A DNA stretch of 64,000 nucleotides from Vicugna vicugna (lineage: Eukaryota). Below the pieces are notes generated by a model. The model saw only the letters and a list, made by a program, of their open reading frames with translations. It was not told the origin of the DNA and made no database searches. Every line of letters starts with the position of its first letter. Position 1 is the stretch's first letter. A program made the position numbers and the translations under genes. Shown in pieces: positions 5,531 to 48,428 of the stretch. Location: the NCBI GenBank assembly GCA_013265495.1, contig MU057651.1, positions 1,127,674-1,191,673 on the forward strand, in the 5' to 3' direction.

Positions 5531-5546
5531 TTCCTATCAATATATG

Positions 5547-5580
<34 letters not shown>

Positions 5581-5695
5581 TGCATGTATCTATCTATCTA
5601 TCTACTTATTTAAATGGAAGTACTGGAGATTGAACCCAGGACCTTGTGCATGATAGGCACACACTCTACTACTGAACTATACCCTCCCCCACCTC
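5531..5695 (-). mobile_element. vic-1-type camelid tRNA-Ala-derived SINE with (TATG/TATC)n tail and 12-bp TSD
   Basis: Reverse complement reads ggggagggtatagttcagtagtagagtgtgtgcctatcatgcacaaggtcctgggttcaatctccagtacttcc + A-rich tail; direct repeat aaactgcatttc at 5519-5530 and 5696-5707. Confidence 0.9.
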
Positions 5696-8599: not shown

Positions 8600-8911
8600 A
8601 CACACCCACAGCGACCCAGATCTTTGAATTCAGCAATTCTTTCTCAGGTTTCAGCGAAGCATTGGCAGCCTGAGCTATTTTGGGACACTTTCTCTGCTGT
8701 GGATGCCACTTTCGGAATACGCCAGAAACATGCTAAGGACCAGGAGCTCTCCGTCCTGGACCCGTTTTCGGGTTTTCTCGCTCTCTCTCTCTCTCTCTCT
8801 CTGGGCTGATCGTTTGGAGGACAGTCGTTCTTGCCAGCCTAATCCCAGGAGCCTGACTACCTTGCCGGGCCACAGGCTCCAAGAGGCAGTGTGGCTGCCA
8901 GCACCCTCACG
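8600..8911 (+). ncRNA. Candidate first/early exon of a spliced + strand transcript (lncRNA-like, carries ORF start at 8703); 5' boundary unknown
   Basis: Strong donor ACG|GTAAGG after 8911; CpG-containing repeat-free DNA; joins in frame to the acceptor at 22065/22066. Confidence 0.55.
8781..8802. repeat. (CT)11 microsatellite
   Basis: Seen directly. Confidence 0.97.
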
Positions 8912-28935: not shown

Positions 28936-31305
28936 AAGCCCAGAGAGATGAATGGACTTACCCACAATGCCTTGCACACAGTAGGCACTCCATATGTTGT
29001 AGAATTGTCAGTCAGCAGGGCGGGGCTGAGGCCCTCCGCCTTCCAAATTCGGACTGAGATTTCCCACCACAACTAGGAAGCAGCTACCCAGGAAGACTGA
29101 AACATATAGTCTATTTCGTTGGTGAGTCATAGGCAACGCGCATTAGAGTGTAGGGTCGAGTGGCCCCAGCTGCCGCCTGAGTGTAAGGGGCGGGGGTGGG
29201 CTCAGGCCGCGGCTGAAGCTTTTTAGCATGTTTATGATGAGCTGAAAGCACTCACTGCTTAATTTAAAATACCGCTCACACATACACATACAATTCAGCA
29301 GCTGGGGGAGCTGCCAGGAATTGAGGCTAAGTGTAGAAAATTGGAGGATCAGGACTATCGGGTACCCAGCCCTGTTTCCCAGCTCCCACGGGCTGTCTCT
29401 GACCCCGGACAGTCTCATCTTCCCCAGTAAACTCCCGGAGGTCAAGACACGGATTGGGGCAGCAGCCGTTTGGGGAAGGGAGGCCTCTGCAGAGCCCTTC
29501 GTGCCAGCAACACTAGTGGTTCTACCTGGTCTTCAGCTTGCCAGCCTTCCTCTCCATTCATGCCTGTTAAAGTACCCCCTCAAAGCCCAGACCCACTCTC
29601 CTGGAGAAGCCTCCACTTGCACCCCCCACCTCCCCCCACCCTTCTGTTCCTGGAAATCTGACAGTTGGGAAAGCTCATTTGGCCTTGATCACAAGTTGTC
29701 TGGGCTGGCTGTGGCTTTTTTTGGTGTGTGGATCTTGTTTTCTCCCAGCTCTCAGCACAGGAGTATGTACACAGCGGGAGTCCCCTGTGCCTTGGCTCAT
29801 GGGTTACATGATCGTATCATTTGAAAAGCCTTTTGGATGGAGGACTTGCTTAGTTGAAAAACAAGAACTTCAACTTGACACAATGTGAACACCCTCAGGG
29901 GGATCCAGTTTCCTTCCCATTGCTCCCCTACACCCAGGGTCCCGTGCCCACAAACTGGGTGAACCTACTGCCTTCGCGATCAAAATGCCCCACAATCCAT
30001 CTCTCTGTTCGTAATACCCCTTCTGACCAGGTGCTCTCTCCCAACTCTACCTATCAAACCCCAACTCACCCTTCAAGGTCAAATCCAAGGGCCATTTCTG
30101 CCATGAAACCTTCCCAGGCACAATTCATTGCCTTGTCCCTGAACCCTCATGGTACCCTGAGTCTACCTCTTTTGGCTAGCAGACAGTGGGCTGGAATAAC
30201 TCCCTCGCTTCCGTAAGCAACCTCAGTTTTCTCTTCTGGAAAACAGGATATAACAGCTTGCCTCAAGGGGATGTTAGAAGCTGCCAATAAAATAATATCT
30301 GCAGCCCACTCAGCAGGAGACTTGGTCTAGGGAGTTAGTGAGGGTTGTGGTTAATCACCATCCTCCTCATCTCTGGGAAGCAGGGTGCAGTAATGGTTAA
30401 TAGTGCGTTGGCTTGGGAACCAGACACATCTAGGTTCCAGGTCTGCCTCCATCACTTCCAAACTGTGTGATCTTGGGCTGGTCACTTCCTGCCTGAGACC
30501 CAGTTTCCTTACATGTGAAAGGAAGTAGTAAGTTTCCCTGCCCCATCACAGAACCTGTTGCGAAGTTTCAAAGACAACAGACACCAGGTAAACTGCTCAG
30601 CACGGGACCCATCCCATAAAAATCGCACATTCAGGTCTATACTTCGTTACAAGCTATGAAACTCCTTTAAGGGCACAGACAATATTTGACTTATCTCTGC
30701 ATCTCTCCCTGCCTAGCCTCGCCCAGAACCTCTGCAGCTGGCAGGCCCACAATAAATCATTGTTGAATTGAATGGAAAACCCAAACCAGATGTGCCTCGT
30801 CCCCTGTCAAATGAAGCTTTCAAGCTGGTGGGTTGGGCCTGCTGCCCCTTCACTCCCCCTCCCTCGGAGCTGAGCCGCCGCCATTGTCTCGCTGGGCTCT
30901 GGGGACTCAAGCAGGGTGGCAGGAGGGATCAGAAGTGGGGAGGGCGAGGCAGGCCGAGGTGGGTAGGGAAGTGCATGCTGTCTGCTCTGCTCTTGGTGAC
31001 TGAGCAAACTGCCTTGGAAGGGGTGCTCTCCTGAAGTTTCTGCTGAATGATCAGAGGTCGGTTTGATGCCTGAAGGGACATGTCAAAAGCCCCTCACCCA
31101 TCCAGGGCCTAGCTGTTGAGGGAACCCACCTCTTGCTCCAAACACTGAAAAATGGAAGGAAGTGAAAGTGTCAGGAGAAAGCTCCCTTCTCCTTTGGCAA
31201 AGAGGGGGAAACTGAGCTTCAGAGAGGTTCAGCTCCAAAATCATGAGACTGGGCTTCAAAGCAGAGCATTCAGCTGGCGCCACAGAAAAACTCTCACCCC
31301 TTGGC

Positions 31306-32279
31306 TACTGCGGCAGGATTTCCAAAACTACACATCGCGAGTTAACCCAGAAGAGGCAAAAAAAAAAAAAAAATTGGGAAGCAATTTCCAAGATTCAGAT
31401 GATGAGTACACTGCCTCTGTCGGGTGCTTACGCTTTGCTTCAGAGGGACAGAGGTACGTATTTATCCGTTATGCCCTCAAAACTCCTGGGAAGAGAACAC
31501 ACAGCTTGACTGGGGGGAAATGCTCCAAAAATACAAATCTGTTTTAAAACTACAAAAAGAGGCCAGTGTCTTCAGTGTTTCGGAGCCTGAGCTATGTAGA
31601 CAGGACCCAGGGAATAGTATGCTGTCCAGCACAGGGTCAAGAGGATGAGTCAGACACCAAAACAGGGCTGCCTGGACTGTATTCTGGGTCTGTCACATAC
31701 TAGCCCACCTGACCCCAGGCAAGTGACTTAACTTCTCGGCACCTCTGTTTTGTCATCTGTCACAAGGTGCCAATAATAGTACCTCCTCACATAGTGGTCT
31801 ATGAGAATCTAGTGAGTGAATGTTTGTAAGGCACTTACCACATGCAGGGGTGCACGGTAAACACCATCAAGCTATTTGTTAAATAAAAATAAGCCCGTAC
31901 TTCTGTCCCTCTGTAGCAAGACTAGCCTAGAGGCAGGGTAGCCAAGTGGTTAGCACTTGCCTGCAGAACTAGTTGAACACAGCTTCCAAGCCCAGCCTCA
32001 TGATTTCAGAGTGGAATCTCTTTGAACCTCAGTTCCACCATCTCTAACGTGGGGATACTAACCGTCTCGATTCCAAGGCCATTCCGAGTTTTAAATGAGA
32101 TAGCTCTAAAGTCCTGAACACAGCGCTGGACACCGCGGAGTGAGTAAGCCCCCAACAGAGGCAGCATACTCATCATCTGAATCTTGGAAAGCGCTGCTTC
32201 CTAATTTTATTTTATTTTATTTTATTTGCCTCTTCTGGGTTAACACACGATATGTAGTTTTGGAAATCCTGCCACAGTA
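31306..32279. repeat. Inverted repeat: arm 1 31306-31431, arm 2 32144-32279, 712-bp spacer
   Basis: Reverse complement of arm 2 aligns to arm 1: 48/52 and 43/47 identical in the two flanking blocks, separated by A16 vs (AAAAT)n and a short indel. Confidence 0.97.
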
Positions 32280-33009
32280 AAGGAACGATTTCATCGTTTT
32301 GCCAATGAAATTCCTAAACATTTTATTCGAGAGCCAGAAAAGGGAAATCGTTGGGGTCATTTCTAAGCCACGCGAACATGGGCCATCTATTTCCCCACTC
32401 ATTTAAATCTATCCCCCAAAGTTGCAGAAGTCACTTTGCAGGACAAAAAAAAAAAAGAAGAAGGAATGAGTACTTTACTGACAACAAAAGCCATCTTTGT
32501 TTGCTGCCCAGCTTTGGGAGAAAAAATACCTCAACCCAGGAGTTTGGAAAATTCTTGAAAGTTCTCATTTTATTCCAGCAAATCCAACCAAATTGGCGAG
32601 ACTCCTGGCCATGTGAACCTGAATCAGAATGAGTCCTCTCTACCCACCACCCTCCCCACAGCACCAGAACCCAGCAGGGTACACTGGACATCAATACACA
32701 CTGGTTGTCGACTCCTGCACGAGAGCCCCAGATTCTATTTCTACTGTGTCTGCTACATTGCCAAAACACTCGGAAAGCGCTAGAGAACATTTTGAAAACA
32801 GGAAAAAAAAGCATCCATCAACTCACCACTCTAACAAAACTCTTAATTTTGTGTGGAAAGTTCTCTTCCAGTCTTTATCCACGTGCAGACATATTTTTAC
32901 AGCACTGTAGTCATAGGGAAAAACTGCAGCAGCTTCAGCCAAGAACCAGATACCATAAAGCTCATGTCACTAAACTTTCCAAGTGAGGGCTTTTTCTTCC
33001 CTCATTGAC

Positions 33010-35260
33010 TCCATTCATTCAGTCAGTCAGCCATTCGACAAACATGGATTGAACCGGGTTCTGATGCTACGCCTCGGGGAGTGCGGAGACAGAGATGACA
33101 AAATCACAGTCCCCGCCCTCAAGTAGCTCCCAGTTTAGCAAGAGAAACAGACAAGTCAGAAATTAGAGCGCGCCTGTGATCAATGCATAAATGCTGTGAA
33201 CGCACAGAAGAGAAGCACTGGAGATGGGCTGGTGGCGGGGAGCAGGAGATCGGGTAGACCAGGCAGAACATACACGAAGGCATGACGTTAGGAGAAAACA
33301 AGGTGTCATCAGGTAGCCAAAAATAGTCCAGAATGGTTGGATCCTAGGCAGACGGCAGTGGACACAGCAAGAACGGAAGGAGGGGGGCAAATCATGAAAA
33401 TTAAAGGTTTCGGTTTCATTCTGAAGACCGTAGGGGAGCTTCGGAAAGATTTAATTTAAGCAGGGTAGTGGCACAGTCAGATACACATTCGAGGAAAATT
33501 GCCCCAGCAACAGAATGGAGGGCAGATGGGAAGGATATGAGAGAGGTAATAGGGGGACCATTTAGCAGGCTGTCACAGTCATCGATTAAGATAAGGAGGG
33601 TCCAAACGATTGAGATGGCTTCTCCACTTACACGCTGTGTCACCTTAGTGGGTGACTTAACCTCTCTGTGCCTTAGTCTCCTCTGTAAAGCAAGAATAAC
33701 CATAGCATCTCCCTTCTGGAGCTTCTGGAAGAACTAGATGAGATACTGCATACAAAGCACCTGGCACAGTCGCTGGTACCCAGAAGACACTCAACACATG
33801 TTCCGACCCCTTCCCCTCATTCCCTTGCCTTCCACCTCACCCTTCCTTAGAGGCTGGCACGGTATGCAGCAGGGAAGTGGCCGAGGCAGGATTCTAACTC
33901 AGACAGTCTGACTCCAGAGGGCAGTGGAGAAAGTTTGAAAGTGCTGTTGTCAGGACAGTTACTCAAAAGGATTGTTTAGCCGAGTCGAGGGCCCAGCTGA
34001 GGTTGGAAACTATGACTTCTGAGTGGGACTAATCAACAAAGTGATCGGATTTTCTCCAGCAGTGTTCCTCCATCTGGGTGTAAGCAACGAGGAGGAGGCT
34101 GTCAGTTAAATTTATCCAGGCTTGGGGTTTTGCCTAGTGGATGTGTCAGAAAGACAAGGGGCAAGGGAGCTGAGGATATAGGCAAGATCCTGACATCTAC
34201 ACTCCAGGAGTTAAGCAAACAGACCTGGCTTCAAATCTCATCTCTGTCCTGTACTAGCTGTGGGACTTTGGGTAAGTCACTCAACCTCTCTGAGCCCCAG
34301 TCACCTCATTAAAAAAAAAAAAAGACAATACCTGTCTCGTAAAGTTATTGTGAGAATTACATGGAGTTATTGAAATGATGTTGTAAGATGCTTAGTATGT
34401 GCCTGGCACATACATATTCGTTATTATTTTTATCATCATCATCATTTTCAAGGATGGGGGGAAGGAAGGAAGGTGGGAAGGGCTGACTGGGTGGGAGAAT
34501 GAAGGGGGCTCAAGAGCCTGGAGATCCTCTTGAGGCAAAAGGATGAGCTTTGAGGTCAGTGGGCAGGATATGGATAATGGTGGGTTCTGAGATGAAGCAG
34601 TTCCGACCGATGATGAAGGATGGTACGGCTAGAATGGGAGTGTGTCCTGCACATGGATCATGGATGTCAACTCACCCAGGATGATGTCAGGACTTGGGGT
34701 GGAGAAGAAGACATTGAGCCAGATGTCGAACTCTTCGTTGAATGGGTGAGGGGGGTGGTTTGACCAGGAGGGGTGGCTAAAAAGAAGAGTCGATGAGGAG
34801 AGGAGAGGAGAGAAGAGGGTGCTGTAGCCAGATGGCATCAGAAGGAGGAGTTCTTGGCCGAAGGCGGAGGAGTAACGATCTGGACGCAAACAGGGGAAGC
34901 TAGAGCACAGACCCCACCTCCCAGCCCTAGGGTGTCTATGGTGTGGAGTCTGAGAAGTGTCCACCAGAGGGCGCTGCAGGCAAAGCCGTGAGCTCCTCCG
35001 CGGAGACAGGTTTCAGCGCTTCCAGGCGCGGAGGTAGAGAACGGTGTTCTGCGATGCTTATTTAGAGTGTAGGGGGAATTATTTCCCATGGGGTGGGGTT
35101 TCCAGAGGGTCCAGAGAAGAGCGGGAGGGGGCAGTAGTTGGGAGGTGGGTGAGCCAGGGGTGGTGGGGAACGGGAGCACAGAGCAGAATGGGGACGGTAT
35201 GGGAGAGGACAGATGATGGGCAGGGAGGCTCACGTTTGGGCTGTAGCCAAGGACTGGGGG
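33010..35260 (-). mobile_element. L2 LINE fragments (antisense; ~33010-33600 and ~34440-35260) with intervening MIRs
   Basis: 'cattcattcagtcagtcagccattcgacaaacatggattga' L2 tail; 'gatcatggatgtcaactcacccaggatgatg' reverse L2 endonuclease region. Confidence 0.75.
34958..34976 (+). promoter_or_regulatory. CTCF motif (near-consensus) TGTCCACCAGAGGGCGCTG
   Basis: Matches CCACCAGRGGGCGC core; CpG-retaining surroundings. Confidence 0.7.
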
Positions 35261-38572: not shown

Positions 38573-38664
38573 TTTTTCTTTGTTAATGGCGATACTGGGG
38601 ATTGAATCTAGGACCTCACACATGCTTAGCATGCTCTCTCCCATTGAGATATTCCCCACAACCC
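38573..38664 (-). mobile_element. Second, more diverged vic-1-type tRNA-derived SINE
   Basis: 'atactggggattgaatctaggacctcacacatgcttagcatgctctctcccattgagatattcccc' = reverse tRNA-Ala-like body with T-rich tail. Confidence 0.8.
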
Positions 38665-40257: not shown

Positions 40258-40479
40258 CTCTAGCCTTTCAGTTTCCATAGAACTGGTCTTTGTCTGGTTC
40301 TCCCCAAACTCCCATCCCCTTCACCTCTGCCCCCAAGGAATGGAGTCCCATCCTTGCTCCCAGTGTCTGAAAGGACTCGTAAGCCTCACTCCCTCTTCAT
40401 CGGTTCAGCTAGGCTGAGTCGGACTGCAGCTTCCAACGAAGTGAACTGCTTGACTGCATCGCAACCTGTTGCTGCCCCT

Positions 40480-40710
40480 CCCTTTGGGTGCCCCCACTGA
40501 GCTCAGCTCCCGCAGCGGAGTCTCCTACGCCACGCCAAGGGTGCCGCTACCGGCAGATGGCGGCCCTTCCACTCCGCAGCTCAGCCCTTAGCCCCTTCTC
40601 CATCCCCGCCCGGGCTGTTGATAATCGGCAGATCAGGTCCGACTACAGCCAGGTTAGAATTTGGGTCTCACCGGATCCCGGTAGCCCTTTGCCCACACCT
40701 AGATTCCCAT
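40480..40710. promoter_or_regulatory. Small CpG-rich patch containing CTCF-like motif CCGGCAGATGGCGG (40550-40563)
   Basis: Local CpG density well above flanks; motif read directly. Confidence 0.55.
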
Positions 40711-43700
40711 CGGATATTGAAAGACAAAAGAACCCTCTTCTGCAAATAGGAAGAGAAGGAGAGTTGCCCACCCTCTGAGCTTTCCTCTACCAGTCTTTTA
40801 AAGCGCTTTCTTGTCAGCATCGCACAGACAGCCCCCCGAACATTTGAGAACCCAGCCTAGTTCCCTGCAGAGCACCTTAGCCAAGAGTCTGTGCTCTGAA
40901 ATCAAACGGACCTTGAACCCAAGGTCTACCTCATACTGCTGAGTGACTTGAGAAGTTTCACTTAGACTCTCTGAGCTACAGTTTGTTCATTCAGAAAATG
41001 GTAATAATAATAGTACCTACCTCCATACTGTCCTTCTTAGGATGAAATGAATGCCTATAAGATGCTTAGCAGAGTGCCTAGCACACAGTAATCCACCAGA
41101 AAATGATAGTTATTGTTGCTATTCTGGGAATCACATGGTGTGCACTGAAAACTGGCTTCTGCTAATGTTACTTGTCCCATTCTGCATGTTTCCACTTTAT
41201 CTTCCAGACCAAGTTAAAAGTGTTTTTTTGAGGCTGACCAGGATGGGTCTGCATCTGGGCTGAAGTTGCATCTGCTGAGAGATACTAGGCTGGGAAAATC
41301 TGAAAGGCTCTCTTCTCCCAGGCAAAAAGAATGCTTTTTACAGTTTTTTTTTCTATCCTATCTCATCCCACAAAGACAATCTGAGAAGTAGTCATTGAGC
41401 AGACCAGAATTGGGGAGCCAGATTAATTAGGAACTATACTTAACTACGGCACCCACGTTCTTAGAAAATTCAGGAATTGTCTGAAAAGGTGTCTGGCAAA
41501 GTTGGCTGCATGGTTAATCACCTCAAGCCGTGTCTGCCTGGTGCCAGAGCTTTTGGAGGAAAAGGGAAAAACACAATCAGTCATCCAGGTGCCAAAGAGA
41601 CCATTCAGCTCCTGTGCAGAGATGATATTAAAAAGTCATCTCAGTATAAGCAGCTAGATTAAGGCAACAAACACCTTGAAGGTTCTAACCTGTTTGCTTA
41701 GCATTAACTAAGGGTTTTAATGACCCAGAAACCATTGAAGGGAACATCCAGATATCCATTAATGGGTCAATGTTTATTGAGCACCTACTATGTGTGTGGC
41801 ACTGTGCAGGCTAGAGAAAGCAGAAGAATATAAAAATCAGTCTAGAATCTTCTCTTGAAGGTTGCTATCCAGCTGGAGAGGGGAGGTGGGGTAGGGAAAG
41901 CAAATCCCTAGACAAAGCAATAGAAAGCCCTTCAGCTAGGTCTTTCAGAGGAGGCTAACATCCTTTTAGTTGCTGTAATTACAGCCTCACAAAATCAAGC
42001 AGCCCGATGTTCTATTTGGTGAAAGGAAAAAATACAGTTCGGCTCATCAACGGGGGCTGTTTGACATTCCAAGGACTTACACAGAATGGTTCAGAACCAG
42101 ATCTGGTGGCGGGCAGATCTGGGTTTTTCTGGCTCTGCTGCTTTCCCAGCTGTGTGACCTCACCCAGGTTGCCTAACCTCTCTGAGCCAGTTTCTCCCTG
42201 TAGAAATTGAAGGGCATAATAGTACCTTCTTTGAAGGATTGTGACAATTACAAGACATATCTTATGTAAAGCATTTGGCACAGAGCCTATCTTAATGTTC
42301 CCTAAAAAGGTAACTTAACTATAATCATTAAAAGAGAAAATGGCCATCATGAGCATTGGCCAAAGACATGTAGAAACTCTGGAAGAAAATTCCAGCCTCT
42401 CCCATTAGCAGTGAGGGCAGGTTGTCCTCCCCTCCTTGGCGCACTAGCATTCTCAGGTGCACACCAGCCAGGCCTGGGAAGACGGGGAGGTAAAGAAAGC
42501 ATTCCCACAACAGCTCCTCCCCCACCCCGCGCTTTACCCCCTCCTCACGTTAATCTGGCTTTTATGCTGCCTCCTACTCGCCCAGAAGGGGCTCCCCTCT
42601 GCCATTAAGGGCCCTCTCTGGGAGTTCTTGGTCATCCAATTTCAATATTCCTCTCTTTACAACCTCCCTTTGCAATTTGGCATCCTACATCTCCTTCCCT
42701 GCGGTATAACAACACGAGAAAGGATAGAAACATTGTAATGTGACCTTTTAAAAAAGAATGACCTGTATGTAAAAATCCATCAGCGCCTCTTAAAAAATGC
42801 ATATGCACAAAACCCCACAAAAGTCTCTGACTCATGCCTGGGAGAAGCAACAGGCACACCTGAATAGATTTTTTTTCCCCCAGAAATTTGACTGGCAAAA
42901 ATTTATCTCTGAATCTTCTATCACAGGATGTCTAGTTTCCACCCCAAAAAGGAAACACTTTGGGTTATTATGAGAAATCATAATGGCAGTTCCAACAGTC
43001 TGCGGATGACAGAATCAGCTCCTGAAAATGCTACAGTCTATAGTATTTTGTTTTTCCCGGTTATTAATACAATACATTTTGCCTCTGAGTCAAATGTTTT
43101 TACTTACGCCAAGAAAAAATCGTGAGTTACAGGAAGTCTAACAGGCTTAATGAGCAAGGAGTTTAACTTAAGCCAGTGGTTTTGCAATAACCCAGCCCAA
43201 ATCAGGCTCACTCCCTGCATTTAATGGGAAATAAGTGGTCAGAAATGGCCTTTAGCAACCTTGTTAGTGAAAAGGCACACGAGGTGCGTACCAACAAGGC
43301 TAGTTCTCCTGAGGTAAAAATGGCAGGTTGAGGTCACTGTAATTATCAACAGTGCTTTTTGCATGCTGGTTCCTATTACACATATTACCTGTTGCTTTTC
43401 GGCTTTCTGTAATTACCGTTTCTTATGGTCAGATCATGCTGTTTCCTCTGCCTTTTACCAAGCAGCATGCTTGGGAGAGTCATTTGTGGCCCCTTGAGTC
43501 TGCCCTGTAAGTGTATTTTAAAAGGCAAAGCTTCTTCGCCCAGCGAAATGAAACTGATTGGGAAAGTTCACCATAGAAACGGGGAGACCTATTACGTGTA
43601 ATGGCCAAGCTCTTTGCAACCAGATCTAAGCACTCAGCCACAATTTCAGAATGAAAGAACCTGTAAAGGCTTCAGAAGATAGCCGTGAAGACGATTAAGG

Positions 43701-47413: not shown

Positions 47414-48428
47414 AAATACAAATGGCCAATAGGCACATGAAAAAATGCTCAATATCACTAATAATCAGAAAAATGCAAATCAAAACTACAATGAGGTATC
47501 ACCTCACACCAGTCAGAATGGACATCATTGAAAAGTCCACAAATGATAAATGCTGGAGAGGGTGTGGAGAAAAGGGAACCCTTCTACACTGTTGGTGGGA
47601 ATGCAGTTTGGTGCAACCATTGTGGAAAACAGTTTGGAGATTCCTCAAAAGACTAGGAATAGACTTACCATCCAGCAATCCTACTCCTGGGCATATATCC
47701 AGAAGGAACCCTAATTCAAGAAGACACCTGCACCCCAATGCTCATAGCAACACTATTTACAATAGCCAAGATGTGGAAGCAACCTAAAAGTCCATCAATA
47801 GATGATTGAATAAAATAGTTGTGGTATATATATACAATGGAATACTGCTCAGCCATAAAAAGAATAAAATAATGCCTTTTGCAGCAACATGGATGGACCC
47901 AGATATTGTCATATTAAGTGAAGTAAGCCAGAAGGATAAAGAAAAATACCATATGATATCACTTATATGTGGACTCTTTAAAAATGACACAAATGAACTT
48001 ATTTACAAAACAGAAACAGACTCACAGACATAGAAAACAAACTTATGGTTACCAGGGGAGAAAGGGGGTGGGAAGGGATAAATTGGGAGTTTGAGATTTG
48101 CAGATACTATGACACAAATGAACTTATTTACAAAACAGAAACAGACTCACAGACATAGAAAACAAACTTATGATTACCAGGGGGAAAGGGGAGGGTGGAG
48201 GAATAAATTAGGAGTTCAGAATTTGCAGATACAAGCTACTATATATAAAATAGATAAACAACAAGGTTGTACTGTATAGCACAGGGGACTATATTCAATA
48301 TCTTGTAATTGTCTATAATGAAAAAGAATATGACAAGGAAAGAAAAAAATACATATATAGCTGAATCACTAGGCTGTACACCAGAAATTAACACAAAGTT
48401 GTAAACCATCTATACTTCAATTTTAAAA
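47414..48428 (+). mobile_element. 5'-truncated young L1 (ORF2 C-terminus + 3'UTR) with an internal 125-bp tandem duplication
   Basis: Translates to [34 protein letters not shown]...[18 protein letters not shown] (L1 ORF2p C-terminal cysteine-rich domain), frameshifted; same 3'UTR family as 18312-18797. Confidence 0.95.

What the first reader, a model, noticed from the sequence alone, without database searches (positions are those of the whole stretch)
31306..32279. Non-TE inverted duplication able to form a long stem-loop
Seen: two ~125-135 bp arms in inverted orientation around a 712-bp spacer holding two MIRs; 48/52 and 43/47 identity either side of an A16 vs (AAAAT)n tract. The arms are not a recognisable TE or TIR. 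Arm 2 begins in the 3' tail of the MIR at ~31935-32150, while arm 1 carries that tail fragment without the MIR, so arm 1 looks like the derived copy (template-switch insertion, or micro-inversion with duplicated ends). Most mismatches fit CpG decay (CG>TG/CA). Inference: in + strand RNA several mismatches become A-C pairs (preferred ADAR sites) and in - strand RNA G-U wobbles, so any transcript crossing it could form ~100+ bp of dsRNA. The arms could also flip the spacer by recombination.
Basis: partly seen in the sequence, partly recalled or inferred. Interest (0 to 1): 0.7.

Follow-up and report, generated by a model that had tools for sequence, protein, structure and literature searches.

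The report
Scrambled two-age inverted duplication, camelid
A short stretch of mammalian DNA was copied backwards about 0.7 kb upstream in shuffled pieces of different apparent ages; this most likely records two old copying accidents, although it could fold into a long double-stranded RNA if the region is ever transcribed.

Summary
The right block reads A-[MIR halves B,C]-D. The left block is a scrambled reverse copy reading A-D-B: about 30 bp of pairing (A) continues inside the MIR, and a reverse copy of the MIR 5' half (B') abuts the outer end of arm 1. B and B' share a ~22-nt loss and 26 non-consensus bases (527 other pairs: mean 7, max 17), so they are paralogues, yet only 75/104 identical (Fisher p=6e-4 against D). 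Best reading (0.5): an older inverted duplication, then a younger locally templated inverted insertion joined by 3-nt microhomology; neutral. Main rival: one old event whose pairing segments were kept alike by RNA selection or conversion; both junctions of the skipped piece fall at the MIR's ends, which the neutral model leaves unexplained. A ~140-bp stem is predicted on either strand. The minus-strand wobble lean (7:1) also shows in the non-pairing B segment (12:5). No host gene, orthologue or read-level RNA evidence was obtained, so function is untested.

The parts
31187..31311 (-). B': reverse copy of the 5' half of the second spacer MIR; old-looking paralogue of B (outer boundary approximate)
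   Evidence: 75/104 identical to 31941-32044, K2P 0.36; shares a ~22-nt loss and 26 non-consensus bases with B; MIR profile hit 31242-31187
31306..31431 (-).
   Evidence: 48/52 + 51/57 = 99/109 outside the tract; junction letters
31358..31373 (+). A16 tract in D', facing (TTTTA)n at about 32204-32227 in D
   Evidence: sequence, alignment
31432..31465 (-). A': reverse copy of the sequence just 5' of the second MIR; continues the stem inward; carries a + strand donor-like site at 31454
   Evidence: core 22/24, whole 29/34; score 115 against at most 70 elsewhere in 426 window tiles; donor score 8.8 on a rough matrix
31496..31509 (-). tentative further inward match (12/14) to 31867-31880
   Evidence: short and out of register, not tested against shuffles
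31466..31888 (.). inner spacer (423 nt) holding the first MIR (+ strand, about 31660-31880)
   Evidence: I4; profile hit 31680-31842, E=1e-20
31889..31926 (+). A: unique sequence 5' of the second MIR, template of A'; carries a + strand acceptor-like site before 31917
   Evidence: acceptor score 8.2 on a rough matrix
31928..32143 (+). second MIR, collinear: B (about 31928-32055) and C (to about 32133-32143); looped out of the predicted stem
   Evidence: profile hit 32015-32129, E=2e-9; 5' half aligned with 31 other MIR halves; B-B' expected pairs 0 in the ensemble
32144..32279 (+). D (arm 2): apparently unique sequence, template of D'
   Evidence: no other copy in the window
32001..32400 (.). 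most CpG-retaining 400-nt window of the 64 kb (observed/expected 0.81), covering C, D and flank

Best explanation
A neutral, two-step product of replication or repair template switching. Step 1 (older): a stretch spanning A and the 5' half of the MIR (B) was copied in reverse to the left of the spacer. Step 2 (younger): at the A'/B' boundary of that old arm, synthesis switched to the opposite strand of the right block, copied D (perhaps A as well, skipping the MIR body) and rejoined B' through 3-nt microhomology, losing about 8-11 nt. Both arms have since decayed (CpG loss, tract change, one 3-nt indel). SHOWN: segment order, paralogy of B/B', identity gap, microhomology, predicted fold. INFERRED: two events, their order, direction of copying, neutrality, and ages. 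B is roughly 35-90 My and D roughly 10-25 My by three crude calibrations. Any dsRNA, editing or small RNA would be a by-product.
For: Left block reads A-D-B while the right reads A-B-C-D with the MIR collinear. D is far less diverged than B: 99/109 vs 75/104, p=6e-4; at non-CpG columns 5/99 vs 25/100 mismatches, p=1e-4. D's mismatch spectrum is ordinary for a young copy: 8 transitions, 2 transversions, 5 of 10 at CpG-type sites. 3-nt microhomology at the D/B junction. Inverted, nearby-templated insertions with microhomology, including multi-template ones, occur as germline variants (PMC8421209, passages); type 1-4-3-2 switches create inverted repeats (PMC5453318, passages). No Pfam hit at a curated cut-off in 182 of 182 ORFs of 75 aa or more; no Rfam family at the locus.
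Against: The piece missing between A' and D' starts within about 10 nt of the MIR's 5' end and stops at or near its 3' end; random switch points would rarely do that (my rough estimate is around 1%, post hoc, not a tool result). No DNA hairpin explains a skip of the MIR body (z 0.43 and 0.25). A looks more like D than like B in identity (likelihood ratio 3 for 29/34, 17 for the hand-picked 22/24 core), which a D-only insertion does not predict. The two best-kept segments are exactly the two that pair together in the ensemble. Over D+B the transitions lean 19:6 to minus-strand G-U (p=0.015), while 41 MIR copies of the window show no such asymmetry overall. Published short-range events have templates within tens to hundreds of nt (100 bp in PMC8421209); here the template is about 0.85 kb away. 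B runs somewhat fast (0.59-0.61 from the MIR consensus vs 0.44 +/- 0.13), which shrinks but does not remove the gap.
Confidence: 0.5

Rival explanations
1. One old multi-switch event made A'-D'-B' at once. D'/D and A'/A were then kept complementary by selection on a long RNA stem (probably in a minus-strand transcript) that loops out the MIR, while B', which cannot pair at the same time, drifted. It would work like an intronic editing or splicing duplex.
For: Only the co-pairing segments are well kept; expected pairs D 114-120, A 24, B 0. D mismatches lean 7:1 to G-U on the minus strand, which gives helices of 40 and 34 bp and a duplex of -194.9 vs -175.4 kcal/mol. Transversions 2/109 in D vs 12/104 in B, p=0.005. 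Window T>A skew on the minus strand of 3.5-4.5%.
Against: 7:1 is not significant (p=0.07), and p=0.27 given B's own 12:5 lean. A leans the other way (1:2). No A>G/T>C asymmetry in 41 MIR copies and no G>C skew, so sustained minus-strand germline transcription is not indicated. Transcription-linked mutation can itself produce such a lean (PMC2927911, passages). No host gene found.
Confidence: 0.17
2. One old event, with D and A later homogenised neutrally by conversion or repeated template switching between the arms; no function.
For: Explains A resembling D without a second insertion. Template switching converts near-perfect inverted repeats to perfect ones (PMC5453318, passages). The CpG-rich patch over C/D could mark biased conversion (inference).
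Against: Arms are 126-136 nt with a longest identical run of 24 nt, below the ~200-bp efficient segment, although conversion of shorter tracts is not excluded (PMC3924818, passages). It does not say why B (about 110-125 nt) escaped.
Confidence: 0.15
3. The A-D inverted repeat is older than the MIR. The MIR later inserted between A and D of the right arm, and arm 1 preserves the empty site; B' is a later partial copy. The stem would then have been held at about 90% for more than 100 My.
For: A'/D' joins the two flanks of the MIR almost exactly, as an empty site would. The window-built profile does not extend the MIR into D.
Against: The first bases of D resemble the tail of the one full-length MIR that could be compared (1 copy only). 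D's CpG decay looks recent and partial (5 of 10 sites). It needs extreme conservation, and B' landing exactly at the arm's outer end.
Confidence: 0.06
4. B' is an independent MIR insertion (or B simply evolves fast), so only one young duplication of A+D exists.
For: By raw local score the B-B' pair (289) ranks only third of 528 MIR pairs; two pairs of well-kept MIRs score 305.5 and 298.5. Gap placement in the 5' half is alignment-dependent. B is more diverged from the consensus than average.
Against: B and B' score at most 190 and 162 with any of 31 other halves. They share 26 non-consensus bases (others mean 7, sd 2.9, max 17 of 527 pairs) and a ~22-column gap that no other row shows in the same place.
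Confidence: 0.07
5. The arms are the terminal inverted repeats of an unrecognised MITE or DNA transposon, or fragments of a multicopy repeat.
For: Two inverted arms around a ~0.7-kb spacer is MITE-like in outline; no mammalian repeat library was available to exclude it.
Against: No other copy in the window. The interior is made of MIRs and the arms are scrambled with MIR pieces. No look-alike among noted windows (weak).
Confidence: 0.04
6. Assembly artefact.
For: Reads were not examined across the junctions.
Against: The arms differ at 10 of 109 columns plus indels; 11 of 24 listed runs hold all sampled words, 2 of them not flagged as a possible source.
Confidence: 0.01

Closest known systems
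Microhomology-mediated templated insertions (MMB-TI / MMBIR; PMC8421209, passages)
   Same: Inverted copy of a nearby template, microhomology at a junction, several templates in one insertion, found as germline variants.
Four-point template switch, type 1-4-3-2 (PMC5453318, passages; PMC7954356, abstract and first part of the introduction)
   Same: A reverse-copied fragment creates an inverted repeat around an uninverted spacer.
   Different: Their events are local (tens to hundreds of nt) and proved against an outgroup; here the 126-nt fragment sits inside an older inverted copy and no outgroup was available.
Pairs of conserved complementary regions (PCCR; PMC8052449, passages) and ADAR editing-complementary sequences (the latter recalled)
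   Same: Long-range complementarity under 10 kb, very stable predicted helix; such stable pairs are enriched for A-to-I sites.
   Different: PCCRs are defined by cross-vertebrate conservation within introns; neither conservation nor a host transcript is shown here, and the stem is much longer than typical PCCR helices.
Template-switch-born hairpins and miRNAs (PMC10710096, abstract)
   Same: A replication error makes a lineage-specific RNA stem in one step.
   Different: Those are ~35-bp stems with short loops; this is a ~140-bp stem with a 423-nt inner loop and a 217-nt side loop.

Membership tests
MMB-TI / template-switch insertion | Insertion is an inverted copy of nearby sequence | tested here: met
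   D', A' and B' are reverse copies of sequence 0.4-1.0 kb away
MMB-TI / template-switch insertion | Microhomology at the junctions | tested here: inconclusive
   3 nt at D/B; none clear at A/D; 3 nt can arise by chance; outer junctions too decayed to read
MMB-TI / template-switch insertion | Pre-event allele without the insertion in an outgroup | not testable with these tools
   No genome held; two metagenome scans gave no orthologue
PCCR / conserved intronic RNA duplex | Stable long-range complementarity within 10 kb | tested here: met
   z=-16.3 against 20 shuffles; duplex -175 / -195 kcal/mol; expected for any inverted copy
PCCR / conserved intronic RNA duplex | Both arms conserved across species, with compensatory changes | not testable with these tools
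   No orthologues obtained
PCCR / conserved intronic RNA duplex | Lies in a transcribed intron | tested here: inconclusive
   No coding exon found; T>A skew on the minus strand but no MIR substitution asymmetry; reads not examined
ADAR substrate / endo-siRNA hairpin | A-to-G mismatches or 21-23-nt RNAs on the arms | not tested
   No read-level data obtained
MITE / TIR transposon | Many genomic copies matching a consensus | not testable with these tools
   Only two copies in the window; no genome or repeat library
MITE / TIR transposon | Target-site duplication flanking the terminal repeats | tested here: inconclusive
   By eye only: the left outer flank is MIR-derived B' and the right is unique; no duplication longer than 2-3 nt is evident
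Invertible segment (NAHR between inverted repeats) | Long identical tract (about 200 bp) between the arms | tested here: not met
   Longest identical run 24 nt; threshold from PMC3924818 passages (yeast value, rodents described as similar)
MIR SINE (for B, C, B') | Match to a MIR profile | tested here: met
   Profile from 41 window copies; E=2e-9 and 1e-5. The family name MIR is recalled, not taken from a library.

The most novel reading that the evidence does not exclude
A lineage-born ~140-bp RNA stem that pairs across and loops out a whole MIR has been kept by selection for tens of millions of years (or even predates the MIR). The co-duplicated but non-pairing B' segment serves as a built-in neutral clock showing a 3- to 5-fold slowdown in the pairing arms. 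On the + strand, the inner helix would also pair a donor-like with an acceptor-like site.
Probability: 0.2. Interest if true: 0.62.

Novelty: new member of a known kind. Interest (0 to 1): 0.3.

Why it matters
On the best reading it is a tidy fossil of serial template switching at a pre-existing inverted repeat: ordinary in kind, useful as an example. It matters more if the rival holds. Single-genome claims of a selected RNA stem normally lack a control, and here B/B' supplies one next to the stem, so a handful of orthologous sequences would decide between 'young copy' and 'maintained duplex'.

Tried and rejected
Host gene: none identified. Pfam on 182 of 182 ORFs of 75 aa or more gave only 9 ORFs with sub-threshold hits; shorter exons are not excluded. 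Arm 1 as a coding exon (open frame 31149-31547, donor-like site at 31454): no Atlas hit, 0 of 19 candidates scored in the protein search, and splice scores on a rough matrix with recalled frequencies are common in the window (acceptor 4 per kb, donor 0.6 per kb); not supported. Orthologues: no genome held; a 21-mer scan of metagenome contigs gave 0 hits; a 17-mer scan gave 87 loci, of which none extended beyond about 34 nt and none held a MIR, so all were set aside as chance. RNA: 2 runs on record as RNA hold 0.26 and 0.24 of the words, and 2 guessed-RNA runs hold 0.20 and 0.18; none was laid on the locus, so they are not used as evidence. Rfam: nothing at gathering score at the locus; 2 chance-level hits at E 0.23 and 0.46. 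Hairpin bypass of the MIR body: no unusual DNA fold. Retrocopy of a spliced RNA: the skipped piece lacks GT-AG ends on either strand (read from the sequence). Staggered-break inversion: would make B and D the same age and break the MIR's collinearity (inference). Extension of the repeat into C or the outer flanks: only gappy, low-identity alignments, judged by eye to be chance with no shuffle control. Bacterial promoter scan: not relevant. Look-ups of earlier findings near the locus, by sequence and in relatives: empty.

Full report
OBSERVATION. The inverted repeat is real and as described. Arms 31306-31431 and 32144-32279 lie 712 nt apart, match 48/52 distally and 51/57 proximally (99/109 outside the A16/(TTTTA)n tract), and give a self-BLAST E of 1.8e-35 with no third copy in the window. 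Two MIRs lie between them, found with a profile built from 41 other MIR copies of the window with the locus left out (the family name is recalled). Half of the mismatches (5 of 10), not most, are CpG-type. The stretch 30800-32800 is held at 0.97-1.00 of 205 sampled words by 16 of 24 listed runs under two organism labels; 13 are flagged as a possible source, 3 (2 studies) are not. An assembly artefact is therefore unlikely. The camelid label rests on earlier AI notes for this genome and on a tRNA-derived SINE at 5615-5686 (its identity is recalled).

The right block reads, on the + strand, A (31889-31926), the MIR halves B (about 31928-32055) and C (to about 32143), then D (32144-32279). The left block, read on the - strand, is A' (31465-31432), D' (31431-31306), B' (about 31311-31187). 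So it is a reverse copy with the pieces in the order A-D-B and C missing. A' matches A at 22/24 in its core (29/34 overall); it scores 115 against at most 70 elsewhere in 426 tiles of the window.

B' IS A PARALOGUE OF B. In an alignment with 31 other MIR 5' halves, the two share a gap of about 22 columns that no other row shows in the same place, and 26 non-consensus bases (527 other pairs: mean 7, sd 2.9, max 17). Each scores at most 162 or 190 with any other half but 289 with its partner. Against this, 289 is only third of 528 pairs by raw score, and gap placement differs between aligners. The D/B junction has 3 nt of microhomology; the A/D junction has none that is clear. Whether D starts in the MIR tail is unresolved: the profile stops near 32133, and only 1 full-length tail could be compared.

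TWO APPARENT AGES. D is 99/109 identical (K2P about 0.10) and B 75/104 (0.36), Fisher p=6e-4; transversions 2/109 vs 12/104, p=0.005. At non-CpG columns the mismatches are 5/99 vs 25/100, p=1e-4. B is somewhat fast (0.59-0.61 from the consensus vs 0.44 +/- 0.13 for the 31 others), which is not enough to close the gap. A is closer to D than to B (likelihood ratio 3 to 17, the higher value on hand-picked ends). Crude dates: B 36-89 My and D 10-25 My at 5e-9 per year (rate quoted in PMC8605555, passages) or 2e-9 (recalled); 39-53 and 11-15 My as shares of a 130-My MIR age (same paper). [quoted passage not shown]

RNA POTENTIAL. Either strand folds D'/D and A'/A into about 140 pairs with the MIR looped out: expected pairs D 114 (+) and 120 (-), A about 24, B 0, because B'/B crosses D'/D. 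z=-16.3 against 20 shuffles, which any inverted copy would give. Longest uninterrupted helices are 24 and 21 bp on + and 40 and 34 bp on -. D's transitions lean 7:1 to G-U on the minus strand (A-C on plus), p=0.07. B leans 12:5 the same way and A 1:2 the other; given B's rate, D's lean has p=0.27, while D+B together (19:6) has p=0.015. Across 41 MIR copies there is no A>G/T>C asymmetry (0.124 vs 0.122) and no overall C>T/G>A asymmetry (0.163 vs 0.183); one of three sub-regions (<20 kb) gave p=0.02 uncorrected. The window has a 3.5-4.5% T>A skew on the minus strand without a G>C skew. Transcription itself can bias substitutions in this direction (PMC2927911, passages), so the lean is not evidence of selection. 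No host gene was found, no Rfam family, and no reads were laid on the locus, so transcription, editing, splicing and inversion polymorphism remain open.

MECHANISM. Best reading (0.5): an older inverted duplication of A-B, then a younger locally templated inverted insertion of D (possibly A+D with the MIR body skipped) at the A'/B' boundary, closed by microhomology; neutral since. Such inverted, multi-template insertions are known germline variants (PMC8421209, passages) and fit the four-point model (PMC5453318, passages; PMC7954356, abstract and first part of the introduction). What it leaves unexplained: the skipped piece coincides with the MIR's ends, no DNA hairpin accounts for the skip, and the best-kept segments are exactly those that pair together. 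Rivals: one old event with the pairing arms kept by RNA selection (0.17) or by neutral conversion (0.15; arms are short and the longest identical run is 24 nt, against about 200 bp in PMC3924818, passages); B' an independent MIR (0.07); a stem older than the MIR (0.06); a TE (0.04); an artefact (0.01). Frequent spacer inversion is unlikely for the same length reason, although short repeats do flank microinversions of 17-33 nt (PMC8755829, abstract).

COMPARISON AND NOVELTY. It is built like a templated inverted insertion, and would work like a PCCR or editing duplex if transcribed (PMC8052449, passages) or like a template-switch-born hairpin (PMC10710096, abstract). It cannot be filed under PCCR, ADAR substrate or MITE: the defining features could not be tested. 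Earlier notes list other single-copy inverted repeats in this genome (unchecked), so the class is not rare. I make no claim that this locus is absent from print: the searches were by mechanism or rate, because the gene is unknown. No supplements were read; the PCCR catalogue in the supplement of PMC8052449 could bear on the orthologous human locus.

VERDICT. Real, more intricate than reported, most likely a neutral fossil of repeated template switching; new member of a known kind; interest 0.3. The built-in B/B' clock makes the selected-stem reading (probability about 0.2) cheap to test with a few orthologous sequences.

Noticed in passing
window 34961-34974 (+): Motif resembling a canonical CTCF site (label recalled); single match in the window at up to 1 mismatch, but the pattern was taken from this site.
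   Followed up: partly
window 5615-5686 (-), with (TATG)n at 5543-5601: Called tRNA by Rfam and ARAGORN, but the tandem tail suggests a tRNA-derived camelid SINE (recalled); a similar element seems to lie near 38590-38655.
   Followed up: partly
window 8648-8911 (+): Exon-like segment with good splice signals, raised CpG and a (CT)n run; no Pfam hit; possible non-coding or 5' UTR exon.
   Followed up: partly
window 34676-34879 (-): Open frame whose translation resembles a LINE-2 endonuclease fragment (recalled), not a host exon.
   Followed up: partly
window 31454 and 31916-31917 (+): A donor-like site in A' and an acceptor-like site in A would bound a 463-nt segment whose two ends pair in the inner helix; post hoc, and the two signals are not independent.
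   Followed up: no
window 31920-31972: Small local hairpin at the start of the second MIR, seen in both RNA and DNA folds and absent from B'.
   Followed up: no
window 47984-48232: 125-nt tandem duplication (91% match) inside an L1-like 3' end (L1 label recalled).
   Followed up: no
window 32001-32400, 33001-33500, 40400-40900: Patches of retained CpG (observed/expected 0.81, 0.60-0.64, 0.59); possible regulatory elements or biased-conversion tracts.
   Followed up: partly
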